A DNA stretch of 33,040 nt from a virus (taxonomy: Duplodnaviria; Heunggongvirae; Uroviricota; Caudoviricetes). The position numbers are program-made. The first letter of the stretch is position 1. Each line of letters opens with the position of its first letter. This document shows positions 1-3,000 of this stretch, piece after piece. The stretch lies in the IMG/VR virus record IMGVR_UViG_2671180631_000013; one strand, written 5' to 3'.

Positions 1-3000
1 ATGTTTTGCGAAGAAAAAGTAGCTCAAATGGCTGCATACCTACTTCTTAAGCGAGGTGGGCGCATGGCATATCTGAAATTGATGAAGCTGCTCTATCTGT
101 CTAACCGCAAGTCGATTTTGAAGCATGGCAGGATGATCGGCGAAGATAGCCTTTACTCTATGAAATTTGGTCCAGTCATGTCGAATACGCTGAACTTGAT
201 TCGTGGTAAGGCTGAAGGTATTGGTGACTACTGGTACAACCTGATAGAGACGAACGGGCATGATGTGTTGTTGCGTTCAGATCCGAGGGAAATGGATGCA
301 GACGAGGTCTTTGATGAGTTGAGCCGTGCAGATATCCGGATTTTAGATGAAATCTATTCTCTGTATGGGCATATGAACCGATTTGATCTCGCAAACATGA
401 CGCATTTAGAAAGCGTTTGTCCAGAGTGGCACAATCCTGGCAATTCTCGTAAGCCTATAGACCTGAAAGAAATGCTGATCAGTGAGGGTAAAAGCGAGGA
501 TGAGGCTAATCGTATAATTGGCAAAATGGAAGAATCTCAGAAACTTAAGGAATTTTCTTTGCAATTATCATGACGGATTATCAGCCATACAGGAAAGGAA
601 CTGTGCTTGCCCCAACTGGGCCATGCAATCATCTTCATGTGATTTGTAATGATCCTGTTTATTACCCCGTTAACGATTGTTATTGTGTTTTAGTTGTTAA
701 TATTTCTAGTATCAAGGATGGTGTCCCCCACGATCCGTCTTGCGTCTTGAATTCTGGTGATCATCGCTTTATCAAGCATCCAAGTTATGTTGTTTACGCT
801 GAAGCTATAATTTGGCGAGTGGATAACATGGTTAGAAAGCAGCGATCGGGTGAGATTTCCGTTCATGATGATATGCCAGAAGCTACATTCAATAGAATTC
901 TGGACGGTTTTGATATATCTGATGAAGTTACGCCAAAGAACCTTAAATTTAAAAATAAATATTGCGTATCATCTATTGATGATGAGTAAACAACAGGAAT
1001 TGTTTCGGTATAGCTTCTGGAGTTTTCTATGGAAGATCAAAAAGCAACCAAGCCACAGGTTAAGTTCGACACAATGAAAGCATTCGCAGGTATGGGTGCT
1101 GCTGTTGAAGTTCTGATGAAGGCTGCTCCTAATGCGTTCACTCACGCTACTGTCTCTGGTAAAGAGCAGCAGGGTAAGCTTCGTCGTCGCAAAGCAGCAT
1201 GATCATAGCTGGTGCTTTTTGAAAACCCGCCTTTAGGCGGGTTTTTTCTTTAGTGATGTTCTTTGCCCTTCTGTTTGCCTGTTCTGACCTGTTCCCACTC
1301 GATACGTCCTTCTTCTCGTCTTTTGTCTATGTATTCCGCAAGATCCTGAATATTGATGCAACGTTTTGCTTTTTGTGATGTACCGATGCGATATGTAGGT
1401 ACAGGCAACTTACAAGCGTTTGCTTTTGCTTCTGCTGTGGCTGGACTCATACCAAAGTATTTTTGACTAACTGCTGAGAGTTCAATGTTTGGGGTATTGA
1501 ATTCAGCCATCAGTAAAAACAAGGTATTCATATCATTTCTCCATCATAACCGGCTGCACCCGGTGAGTTACTTATTCATTTCAATAATATTATTTTCTAT
1601 CATTGATTTATTTAAAACCAAAGAAGGAGCAAGATGGTTGTCTATTTTAAACAATGCATAACTTTTAAACTGTTGGTGATATCCGTAACTAATAAGGATG
1701 CTAGAAAAATCTCTTAATTCATCTTCTTTTAAAAAATTAAAATGAAATGGGTTGTCACCATTTATGAACAATGAAACATCTATTATGCAGTATTTCTCTC
1801 CGTTGTCATTTGCATAGAAAAAAATATAAGACATTCTGTTTGTTAAGACAATGCCATTAAATTTTCTTATGTCTGTAGCTATTTTGTTTTCCATGTTTGG
1901 TGCTACATATTTATTTTCAGAAATACATTTAATTTCATCTCCAGATGTCGTGATTATATAAAAATGAAACTTATCAGAAATATCTAACTTAACTACGCCA
2001 TCATTATTGTAAAGGCTGCTAAATTTTGGTGGTTCAACTTTTAAAGAATCATAGTTCTTTAAAAGAAGAGGGGAGTCAAATTTAATAACTTGTAGTATCC
2101 CTTTACCTTCAACCTCCATATTGATTGAAGATATAGCAATTGCATTATCTCTTTTATTATTCAGGATTATGGTTGATATATGCATGTCATATATTCTACT
2201 TGCATTTGCTGAATACGACACTGTCACCTTTTTTGATATTTTTTGCACGCCAAAATATATAGTGAAGGCAGCGGCAAGAATAGATAAGAATTTAATGTCA
2301 AATAAGGACCATAGCCACATTAGTTGCTCAATTGCTTCAGAGTTAATCATTTGCTTTACCATTATCGCTGTAATACAACACATGTGTGTATATATACGCA
2401 ATGCAATTATTTTGCAAGTGCTTCATTTACTATCAATAGCTACGTCACGTTATTGTTTAATGGTTCTTTATAGGGGCGGCAATAGTTAAAATTATCGCTT
2501 CCGTAAATGCCCCCGCAGGGGCATTTGCAGTAATGAAATCAGGCGGTGAAAGTACCAATAAAGGTTTCTACTTTGCTGTCTTTGAATTTCTCAACAAGCA
2601 GATCACGAAATTCGTTAGCCATTTCTTCCTGTACCGCTTCCAGCTGAATAATGCGCAGAACCAGTACAGGACGATCGCCAGTGATAATGCTGAGGCGTAA
2701 TTTAAACGGACGTTCTTTCAGACCTTCAAACGGAACGCATTTAAATTCAAATGCCACTGGCATAATGTCTTTGGTCTTCGCTTCGACAGACTCCATCAGG
2801 GAGCGTTTGCCGCTGAAGTCATTATCTTCAAAATCAGCGGTCTGGTTCGCTTCAATTGTGATTTTACGGATCGCCGCAGCCGCTTTGGTTGCCTGAATGG
2901 CGTCACCATTAGCATCAAAGCCCACAAGGTAGTCGGCCCAGTCTTCAATCCATTCTGCCAGTGACTTCTGGGAGTTACGCTCGCCATTAACAGACAACAG

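What the first reader, a model, noticed from the sequence alone, without database searches (positions are those of the whole stretch)
1568..2401. Very AT-rich membrane-anchored protein in the early-left region: candidate superinfection-exclusion or abortive-infection moron
This gene is roughly 28-30% GC inside a roughly 50% GC prophage, so it is probably foreign. It encodes one N-terminal TM helix and a roughly 240-aa domain I cannot assign. It lies between the YfdQ/YfdP-like early genes and a small PrtN-like regulator, a region analogous to where lambdoid phages carry sie/rex-type cargo. No canonical SD is present at any start.
Basis: partly seen in the sequence, partly recalled or inferred. 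Interest (0 to 1): 0.65.

Follow-up and report, generated by a model that had tools for sequence, protein, structure and literature searches.

The report
AT-rich membrane-anchored prophage cargo gene
A foreign-looking, very AT-rich gene in an E. coli prophage encodes a small membrane-anchored protein from an unnamed family that recurs in the cargo and defence slots of phages, satellites and plasmids, so it is a credible but untested new anti-phage gene.

Summary
The gene is real, but its CDS is 1568..2350 (-), 260 aa, starting MINSEA. It does not use the TTG at 2401.

- **Composition:** GC is 29.0% against 50.8% for the window. This is the lowest N-free stretch in the window.
- **Cassette:** It replaces the exo/ea22 block of sister phages and is present in 99 of 5,426 E. 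coli genomes.
- **Databases:** There is no Pfam, NCBIfam, PADLOC or PDB match. The only hit is phrog_14996, of unknown function.
- **Family:** About 150 clusters at 50% identity, all AT-poor-host outliers. Members sit in the P2 GpA-GpQ defence hotspot, lambdoid xis/int and nin slots, a conjugative element and small plasmids, next to TA modules, HNH nucleases or an ATPase. No partner gene is conserved.

Best reading: a stand-alone, membrane-tethered anti-phage protein (exclusion or abortive infection). This rests on context only and has not been tested.

The parts
1568..2350 (-). CDS of the 260-aa protein (stop codon included), identical to RefSeq WP_047654657.1 and a member of phrog_14996
   Evidence: It is intact and single-copy in 99 E. 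coli genomes, apart from one IS1 insertion and one frameshift. dN/dS is 0.30-0.42.
2246..2317 (-). Codes for the single TM helix (about residues 12-35, WLWSLFDIKFLSILAAAFTIYFGV). An acidic 11-residue N-tail precedes it and QKISKKV follows it.
   Evidence: AlphaFold helix 4-38. Hydrophobicity and flank charges across the family: K/R 0.66 on the N side against 2.43 on the C side. The TM and juxtamembrane segments are the most conserved parts in the close family.
1919..2224 (-). Codes for domain 1 (residues 43-144), an Ig-like beta-sandwich carrying the near-invariant N65-K-[KR]-D motif, P94, S111 and C142
1574..1885 (-). Codes for domain 2 (residues 156-259), a compact alpha/beta domain (four strands, helices, two strands, C-terminal helix) with conserved Y179 and N205
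2409..2436 (-). Sigma-70-like promoter candidate: TTGATA, 16-nt spacer, CAAAAT, lying 58 nt upstream of the ATG
   Evidence: 9 of 12 matches, though such hits occur at chance frequency in this region. A similar TTGAnn-N16/17-(C/T)AAAA(T/A) element precedes orthologues in Citrobacter and Klebsiella in unrelated contexts.
1564..2488 (.). AT-rich cassette (GC 0.298), bounded by the points where similarity to other lambdoid phages stops and resumes
   Evidence: In one search the matches end at query position 164 (window 1563) and resume at query position 1090 (window 2489). GC. In mEp460 and PhiR47_1 this interval instead holds exo, ea22 and an HD-phosphatase.
1250..1531 (-). Downstream neighbour on the same strand, 36 nt away: a PrtN-family protein that is probably the excisionase
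2539..3363 (-). Upstream neighbour on the same strand: YfdQ (DUF2303). A 9-bp hairpin at 2505-2526, with no U-tract, lies between it and the cassette.

Best explanation
The gene is a self-contained accessory ('moron') cassette carried by a lambdoid E. coli prophage. Its product is a stand-alone anti-phage protein tethered to the inner membrane.

**Predicted anatomy (inferred).** A short acidic N-tail lies in the periplasm. One sequence-conserved TM helix spans the membrane. A lysine-rich juxtamembrane segment and two globular domains, an Ig-like sandwich and a novel alpha/beta domain, face the cytoplasm.

**Proposed mechanism (inferred, not shown).** The protein sits at the cytoplasmic face of the inner membrane, where incoming phage genomes and early phage products appear. 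There it binds a phage component, or a host entry component, through the sandwich and C-terminal domains and the conserved TM helix. It blocks infection at or just after genome entry. It does this without an identifiable enzymatic domain.

**Confidence.** I put about 0.6 on a defence or exclusion role of some kind. I put about 0.35-0.4 on this specific entry or early-block mechanism rather than membrane-killing abortive infection.
For: **The cassette is foreign and variable.**
- Its GC is 0.29 against 0.51 for the window.
- It replaces the exo/ea22 block of sister phages.
- It occurs in 99 of 5,426 E. coli genomes, always in the xis-yfdQ slot, in prophages at two or more integration sites.

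**The gene is maintained.**
- It is intact in nearly all carriers, with dN/dS of 0.30-0.42.
- 151 representatives at 50% identity share the same architecture.

**Relatives sit in defence or cargo slots.**
- Providencia P2-like prophages carry it between the portal/ogr genes and GpA.
- Pseudomonas P2-like prophages carry it beside the portal gene, directly after an AAA_16/NB-ARC-like ATPase that weakly matches PADLOC PDC-S59.
- Klebsiella prophages carry it in the nin region.
- Citrobacter islands and IMG/VR phages carry it next to xis-int.
- One version is on a conjugative element and is at least 90% identical across Vibrio, Providencia and Marinomonas.
- Small Acinetobacter plasmids carry it beside MazEF and an HNH_5 protein.
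- Other neighbours are RnlAB, YafO and PanAT toxin-antitoxin modules.

**Literature support.**
- The GpA-GpQ interval is the main P2 defence hotspot.
- Six of eight randomly chosen unknown P4 hotspot loci protected against phages (PMC13586616).

**Topology.**
- The positive-inside signal holds across 76 members.
- There is no lipobox and no basic n-region (sequence).
- The TM and juxtamembrane segments are the best conserved parts.

**Precedent.** SNIPE has the same N-out, single-TM, cytoplasmic-domain topology and acts on phage DNA during injection (bioRxiv 10.1101/2025.11.03.685801).
Against: - There is no experimental phenotype and no expression data.
- The protein matches no known defence, exclusion or Abi family.
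- No catalytic or ligand-binding motif can be named.
- The topology rests on a charge-bias rule only.
- The promoter-like motif is no more frequent than in shuffled sequence, and no intrinsic terminator follows the gene.
- AT-rich genes in E. coli are often silenced by H-NS (established knowledge), so expression in the lysogen is uncertain.
- The gene points the same way as the early-left operon, so it could instead be a lytic-cycle gene.
- The ATPase pairing in Pseudomonas fits an effector role at least as well as a sensor or blocker role.
- The protein was not found in the supplementary tables of the DefensePredictor E. coli screen. That absence is uninformative.
Confidence: 0.4

Rival explanations
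1. Abortive-infection effector. The same membrane-tethered protein senses infection, or is switched on by a partner such as the Pseudomonas ATPase. It then oligomerises through its conserved TM helix to depolarise or permeabilise the inner membrane, killing the infected cell before phage release.
For: - The TM helix is the most conserved segment in the close family and carries an A26xxxT30xxxG34 small-residue face.
- Distant members lie 41-49 nt downstream of an AAA_16/NB-ARC-like ATPase in Pseudomonas P2-like prophages. This is the usual sensor-plus-TM-effector layout.
- TM-anchored single-gene Abi proteins are a precedent. PdpSau and AbiP depolarise the membrane on infection (PMC10127798).
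Against: - A single TM helix carrying a 220-residue cytoplasmic load is an unusual pore former.
- Enterobacterial members have no partner.
- The soluble part is neutral (pI about 6.6) and has no OB fold, unlike AbiP and PdpSau.
- No toxicity data exist.
Confidence: 0.22
2. A gene that serves the phage's own lytic cycle, such as host takeover, counter-defence, or exclusion of competitors only during lytic growth. It would be transcribed with the early-left operon rather than in the lysogen.
For: - It lies on the same strand as yfdP-yfdQ upstream and xis downstream. Only a hairpin without a U-tract separates it from yfdQ, and the gap to xis is 36 nt.
- In Klebsiella phages it sits co-oriented within the early-right nin region.
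- In sister phages the same interval holds early genes (exo, ea22).
Against: - It is dispensable, since most related phages lack it.
- It also occurs on plasmids, a conjugative element and satellite-like islands that have no lytic cycle.
- In P2-like phages it sits in the lysogenically expressed old/tin-type hotspot.
- An upstream promoter-like element travels with the gene.
Confidence: 0.15
3. A competition or maintenance function of mobile elements unrelated to phages, for example entry exclusion against conjugation, or a membrane stress or addiction function.
For: - One subfamily is on a conjugative element directly after the T4SS/coupling-protein/LPD7 block.
- Another lies next to a polyvalent ddrB-ParB/LPD38 protein.
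- Neighbours are often toxin-antitoxin modules.
Against: - Most sampled contexts are prophages: 23 IMG/VR contigs, P2-like and lambdoid.
- Known entry-exclusion proteins are cognate to one transfer system, whereas this family crosses element types.
Confidence: 0.06
4. It is not a functional gene: either a chance ORF in AT-rich junk or a decaying remnant.
For: The SD is weak. One copy is interrupted by IS1 and one is frameshifted.
Against: - It matches a 260-residue PHROG profile end to end (E = 2.9e-178).
- 151 diverged full-length relatives exist.
- Both structural models are confident (pLDDT 80 and 93).
- dN/dS is below 0.5.
- 97 of 99 E. coli copies are intact.
Confidence: 0.02

Closest known systems
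SNIPE (formerly a PD-lambda system): membrane-bound nuclease that cleaves phage DNA during injection (bioRxiv 10.1101/2025.11.03.685801)
   Same: It is a single-gene E. coli defence protein. It has a short periplasmic N-terminus, one TM helix and cytoplasmic globular domains. For SNIPE this topology was shown by PhoA/LacZ-alpha fusions, whereas here it is predicted from charge bias. SNIPE acts at the site of genome entry.
   Different: The window protein has no DUF4041 and no GIY-YIG nuclease domain (Pfam scan). It is half the size. No enzymatic domain is recognisable, so any block would have to work by binding rather than by cleavage.
AbiP (Lactococcus) and PdpSau (S. aureus prophages): TM-anchored single-gene abortive infection proteins (PMC10127798)
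   Same: All are low-GC accessory genes on mobile elements. Each encodes about 250-280 aa with an N-terminal TM anchor and a cytoplasmic C-terminal part. PdpSau likewise replaces other cargo in a prophage slot.
   Different: PdpSau and AbiP have a basic, OB-fold-like nucleic-acid-binding domain. The soluble part here is neutral (pI 6.6) and is an Ig-like sandwich plus a novel alpha/beta domain. TMHMM predicts PdpSau as N-in, whereas this family is predicted N-out. Direct sequence comparison could not be run.
Classical lambdoid exclusion genes in the early-left region: lambda/P22 SieB and RexAB
   Same: They are non-essential genes in the leftward arm of a lambdoid prophage that protect the lysogen against other phages (established knowledge). 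The position here is loosely analogous.
   Different: There is no match to the SieB, RexA or RexB Pfam families, or to PADLOC models. The architecture differs. The slot here is xis-proximal (xis-yfdQ), not next to N/cI.
old, tin and other cargo of the P2 GpA-GpQ defence hotspot (PMC13586616)
   Same: Distant family members occupy exactly this hotspot in Providencia and Pseudomonas P2-like prophages.
   Different: There is no sequence relation to Old, Tin or any catalogued hotspot system. The E. coli copy is in a lambdoid prophage, not a P2-like one.
phrog_14996 (PHROGs v4, unknown function)
   Same: The match is full length, 260 of 260 profile positions, E = 2.9e-178. This is the family the gene belongs to.
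   Different: The PHROG carries no annotation, so membership adds no functional information.

Membership tests
phrog_14996 (uncharacterised phage protein family) | End-to-end match to the family profile | tested here: met
   E = 2.9e-178. Residues 18-277 of the long ORF match profile positions 1-260 of 260.
Moron (autonomous accessory cassette in a prophage; concept from established phage genomics) | Present in some and absent from otherwise collinear related phages, with deviant base composition | tested here: met
   The flanks are shared with 47 phage records that lack the gene. Alternative content is seen in mEp460 and PhiR47_1. GC is 0.29 against 0.51.
Moron (autonomous accessory cassette in a prophage; concept from established phage genomics) | Own promoter and terminator flanking the ORF | tested here: inconclusive
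   A promoter-like site lies at 2436..2409, and a similar element precedes orthologues elsewhere. However, promoter-like hits are at chance frequency, and no intrinsic terminator follows the stop codon.
Known anti-phage defence systems (PADLOC-DB v2.0.0) | Match to any of the 5,027 defence protein models | tested here: not met
   No hit at E <= 0.1 for the window protein or for its Klebsiella and Pseudomonas relatives.
SieB / RexA-RexB / Imm-type superinfection exclusion proteins | Match to the corresponding Pfam families | tested here: not met
   The Pfam-A scan at E <= 0.1 returned only a sub-threshold Ig-like hit (PF24498, 16 bits against a cut-off of 28). None of 76 family members matched any of these families.
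SNIPE | N-terminal single TM helix with a periplasmic N-terminus and cytoplasmic body | tested here: inconclusive
   Predicted from the positive-inside bias across 76 sequences. No experimental topology is available.
SNIPE | DUF4041 domain plus GIY-YIG nuclease domain | tested here: not met
   No Pfam hit. The structure is a sandwich plus an alpha/beta domain with no nuclease-like neighbour.
AbiP / PdpSau | Basic cytoplasmic domain with an OB-fold-like nucleic-acid-binding region | tested here: not met
AbiP / PdpSau | Sequence homology to AbiP or PdpSau | not testable with these tools
Every family member whose source organism was identified is from Proteobacteria.
Cor / Llp-type receptor-masking lipoproteins | Signal peptide with a lipobox cysteine, with the mature protein outside the cytoplasm | tested here: not met
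   The N-region is acidic, with no Cys in residues 1-40 and no lipobox (sequence). The predicted orientation is C-in.
Two-gene NTPase + TM-effector defence system | Conserved adjacent NTPase partner | tested here: not met
   An ATPase partner is seen only in two Pseudomonas loci. Neighbours elsewhere are unrelated to it and to each other. There is no partner in the window.

The most novel reading that the evidence does not exclude
This is the founding, uncharacterised member of a new single-gene immunity family that is widely mobile among Gammaproteobacteria. It has no catalytic domain. It would work through a membrane-tethered cytoplasmic Ig-like sandwich plus a previously unseen alpha/beta fold, and through a sequence-specific TM helix, to intercept phages at the inner membrane. 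In some lineages it would be recruited as the membrane module of an ATPase-containing two-gene system.
Probability: 0.4. Interest if true: 0.65.

Novelty: new variant of a known kind. Interest (0 to 1): 0.5.

Why it matters
Prophage cargo genes are a main source of strain-to-strain differences in phage sensitivity, including in clinical and poultry E. coli lineages that carry this cassette (O25b:H4, APEC O78, ST648).

This family is invisible to Pfam, NCBIfam and PADLOC. Even so, it repeatedly occupies slots that experiments show are mostly defensive.

If it protects, it adds a compact 783-bp single-gene system with no recognisable enzymatic domain and a C-terminal fold with no solved relative. 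It would also give a second test case, after SNIPE, of immunity organised at the cytoplasmic face of the membrane where phage genomes enter.

If it does not protect, it marks a limit of guilt-by-location inference.

Tried and rejected
**Profile and sequence searches.**
- Pfam, PADLOC, NCBIfam and PDB-sequence profile searches of the protein and of a 76-member alignment gave nothing usable.
- tblastn of the E. coli protein against 50,697 phage records found no match. The gene is seen only in prophages and IMG/VR contigs.
- Scanning genome contigs with the wide alignment failed because it has no conserved stretch. The close alignment yielded one locus.

**Structure searches.**
- Foldseek against BFVD found nothing at E < 1e-3.
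- The afdb50 library was unavailable.

**Search for a conserved partner gene.** I rejected this.
- The Citrobacter 477-aa protein is unrelated to the Pseudomonas ATPase.
- The Providencia 361-aa and Vibrio 338-aa neighbours are unrelated to each other.
- The Acinetobacter 427-aa neighbour is an HNH_5 protein and is unrelated to the ATPase.

**Other checks.**
- No literature mentions the accession.
- Neither the accession nor peptide strings appear in the DefensePredictor supplements.
- The apparent second and third AT-rich islands in the window are runs of N, not real.
- Rfam finds no RNA family in 1-6000.
- I treated the antisense ORF 2121..2489 (+) as a by-product of AT-rich sequence. It has no support.
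Full report
**1. The observation**

The window is part of a lambdoid E. coli prophage. It is 100% identical over the tested 1.2 kb to NZ_CP015085.1, where the prophage lies next to zur.

The longest-ORF start, the TTG at 2401, is not the real one. Three lines place the start at the ATG at 2350:
- phrog_14996 matches residues 18-277 end to end.
- RefSeq annotates 783 nt as WP_047654657.1.
- Every homologue starts at MINxK.

The CDS is therefore 1568..2350, 260 aa.

Its GC is 0.290 (GC3 0.264). The window is 0.508 once three runs of N are excluded. 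Among 783-bp windows the gene lies 3.1 sd below the mean. The only equally low windows are N-run artefacts.

The neighbours are as described: YfdP and YfdQ (DUF2303) upstream and a PF11112 protein downstream, all on the minus strand. The downstream protein is better read as the excisionase (phrog_1300; the mEp460 annotation).

The region before the ATG reads AATGGTAAAGCAAATG, so there is no good Shine-Dalgarno sequence.

**2. The cassette**

Megablast against 50,697 phage records finds the two flanks in 47 phages but never the gene. Similarity stops at window 1563 and resumes at 2489.

In mEp460 and PhiR47_1 the xis-yfdQ interval instead holds exo, ea22/DUF551, small ORFs and an HD phosphatase. 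A 925-bp AT-rich unit (GC 0.298) has therefore replaced 2.4-3.5 kb of ordinary early-left genes.

In 5,426 complete E. coli genomes:
- 2,756 carry the flanks, but only 99 carry the gene. It is always single-copy, chromosomal and in this slot, at 95-100% identity.
- The carrier prophages sit at two or more integration sites and have different PanA/PanT variants.
- One copy is interrupted by IS1 and one is frameshifted. The rest are intact.
- dN/dS against two diverged alleles is 0.42 and 0.30.

A sigma-70-like site (TTGATA-16-CAAAAT, 2436..2409) lies 58 nt upstream. Such hits are at chance frequency here. However, a similar TTGAnn-N16/17-(C/T)AAAA(T/A) element also precedes the Citrobacter and one Klebsiella orthologue in unrelated contexts. 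This suggests a promoter that travels with the gene. No intrinsic terminator follows the stop codon. Rfam finds nothing in 1-6000.

**3. The protein**

AlphaFold2 on an 11-sequence alignment gives pLDDT 80.4 and pTM 0.66. The model shows:
- a long helix (residues 4-38) containing the hydrophobic stretch 12-35;
- a beta-sandwich (43-141);
- a poorly modelled linker (145-152);
- an alpha/beta domain (156-259).

Across 76 family members the residues flanking the TM helix show a clear positive-inside bias. The mean K/R count is 0.66 on the N side and 2.43 on the C side. K37 is present in 72 of 76 members. The N-tail is about 13 residues long and acidic.

There is no basic n-region, no lipobox and no Cys in the first 40 residues. 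I therefore infer an N-out/C-in orientation with both globular domains in the cytoplasm. This is an inference, not a measurement.

Other features:
- Near-invariant positions are K37, N65 (in an N-K-[KR]-D motif), P94, S111, C142, Y179 and N205.
- In the close family the TM helix and juxtamembrane segment are the most conserved parts, at 0.75-0.78 mean column identity against 0.48-0.55 for the domains. The helix is therefore probably more than an anchor.
- The soluble part is neutral, with pI 6.6.

**4. The family and where it lives**

The word-indexed search of 5.8 billion proteins finds 11 clusters, from E. coli, Citrobacter and Klebsiella. Exhaustive HMMER against 1.84 billion representatives finds 151 at E <= 1e-3 and 68 at E <= 1e-10. 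Nearly all are 240-270 aa and align over the full length.

None has a Pfam domain. Nothing matches in NCBIfam, PADLOC or PDB sequences.

Every sampled member has lower GC than its locus, 0.26-0.37 against 0.41-0.54.

Contexts sampled:

| Host or source | Context |
|---|---|
| Citrobacter | Just upstream of xis-int at the end of islands whose other cargo varies (P4-like primase module, CbtA/CbeA islands) |
| Klebsiella | Prophage nin region, after an MT-A70 methylase |
| IMG/VR | 23 viral contigs; a solo gene next to xis/int, in the nin region, or beside an antirepressor |
| Providencia | P2-like prophages, between portal/ogr and GpA |
| Pseudomonas | P2-like prophages, next to the portal gene and 41-49 nt downstream of a 455-aa AAA_16/NB-ARC-like ATPase that weakly matches PADLOC candidate PDC-S59; RnlAB nearby |
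| Shewanella | Integrase island |
| Metagenome | Contig beside a YafO toxin |
| Vibrio spp., Providencia, Marinomonas | One cluster at least 90% identical across these genera; on a conjugative element after the T4SS/LPD7 block |
| Acinetobacter | Small plasmids, beside MazEF and an HNH_5 protein |
| Acinetobacter | One phage record |

No partner gene is conserved. The unit is the single gene.

The GpA-GpQ interval is the main P2 defence hotspot. In the same study, six of eight randomly chosen loci of unknown function in the P4 hotspot protected against phages (PMC13586616).

**5. Mechanism**

*Shown:* a foreign, maintained, single-gene cassette; a membrane-anchor-plus-two-domain architecture; and recurrent placement in the cargo and defence slots of at least five kinds of mobile element.

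*Inferred:* the gene protects its carrier against phages. I put about 0.6 on a defence or exclusion role of some kind.

My preferred mechanism, at about 0.35-0.4, is a non-enzymatic block at the cytoplasmic face of the inner membrane, at or just after genome entry. The reasons are:
- the predicted C-in topology;
- the sequence-specific TM helix;
- the absence of any catalytic signature;
- the precedent of SNIPE, whose N-out, single-TM, cytoplasmic-body topology was demonstrated experimentally and which acts on DNA during injection.

The main rival, at about 0.22, is abortive infection by membrane damage. It is favoured by the ATPase pairing in Pseudomonas and by the TM-anchored Abi proteins PdpSau and AbiP.

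A lytic-cycle accessory role (about 0.15) fits the co-orientation with the early operons. It fits poorly with the plasmid, conjugative-element and P2-hotspot copies.

**6. Comparison with known systems**

The protein is a member of phrog_14996, which has no annotated function. It fails the membership tests for:
- SieB, Rex and Imm (Pfam);
- all PADLOC systems;
- SNIPE (no DUF4041 or GIY-YIG domain);
- AbiP and PdpSau (not basic, no OB fold);
- Cor/Llp lipoproteins (no lipobox, predicted C-in).

It resembles SNIPE and AbiP/PdpSau in layout and lifestyle only.

**7. Novelty and verdict**

The functional kind is familiar: a prophage moron encoding a membrane-anchored protective protein. The molecular family is uncatalogued, and its C-terminal domain has no solved structural neighbour. 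I rate it a new variant of a known kind.

Interest is moderate at 0.5. It is a well-defined, compact and testable candidate. It is also one of thousands of predicted but unvalidated defence families, and all the functional evidence here is contextual.

Noticed in passing
window 1-989: A Panacea-domain (PanA-like) antitoxin gene (1..573, PF13274) overlaps by 4 nt a 139-aa ORF (570..989, phrog_19071). Two points suggest a PanA/PanT-type toxin-antitoxin pair: PhiR47_1 and E. coli strain 1428 carry a 474-nt Panacea gene followed by a 549-nt ORF at the same position, and the PhiR47_1 record annotates these as PanA/PanT. In NZ_CP015085.1 the pair lies at the extreme left end of the prophage, next to zur.
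   Followed up: partly
window 1250-1531: The 'PrtN-like regulator' matches phrog_1300 'excisionase' (E = 1e-39) and is annotated as excisionase in mEp460. In PhiR47_1 the integrase lies at the opposite end of the genome record. In the prophage, xis and int are therefore separated by the attachment site.
   Followed up: partly
window 14913-15238, 30259-30590, 32450-32587: There are three runs of N (326, 332 and 138 bases). They lie just after the start of the P21-type holin gene, inside minor tail gene L, and near the window end. They create false low-GC islands and false long ORFs, for example 14700..15242 and 29985..30653.
   Followed up: yes
window 12640-13065: A 141-aa ORF of unknown function (phrog_4748, full-length match) has lowered GC (0.38). 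It lies upstream of an N6/N4 DNA methylase gene (13643..14695) and is a second possible accessory gene.
   Followed up: partly
L015 6589-8759 and L016 6584-8759 (Pseudomonas P2-like prophages): A 455-aa AAA_16/NB-ARC-like ATPase, weakly matching PADLOC PDC-S59 (E = 1e-7), is followed after 41-49 nt by a distant member of the family and sits beside the portal gene. This looks like a candidate two-gene defence system.
   Followed up: partly
L049 9001-9759 (Vibrio parahaemolyticus contig) and cluster of P0045: One family member is at least 90% identical across Vibrio parahaemolyticus, V. vulnificus, V. diabolicus, V. owensii, Providencia and Marinomonas. It lies on a conjugative element after the T4SS/coupling protein/LPD7 genes, which implies recent transfer between orders.
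   Followed up: partly
L002-L006 6015-7448 (1786-3219 in L006); L002, L004, L005 10199-11011 (10205-11017 in L003, 5970-6782 in L006) (Citrobacter islands): A 477-aa protein and a 270-aa protein, neither with a Pfam or PADLOC match, accompany the Citrobacter orthologue and its xis-int module in all five loci. The rest of each island differs.
   Followed up: no
window 2505-2526: A perfect 9-bp hairpin (AAATGCCCC/GGGGCATTT, 4-nt loop) lies between the yfdQ stop and the cassette, inside the flank shared with other phages. It has no U-tract on either strand, so it is not a canonical terminator.
   Followed up: no
NZ_CP121157.1 (H51) and L023 3001-3781 (NZ_CP030152.1): Two natural knock-outs of the gene exist: an IS1X2 insertion and a 2-bp frameshift. 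These strains could serve as isogenic-like controls.
   Followed up: partly
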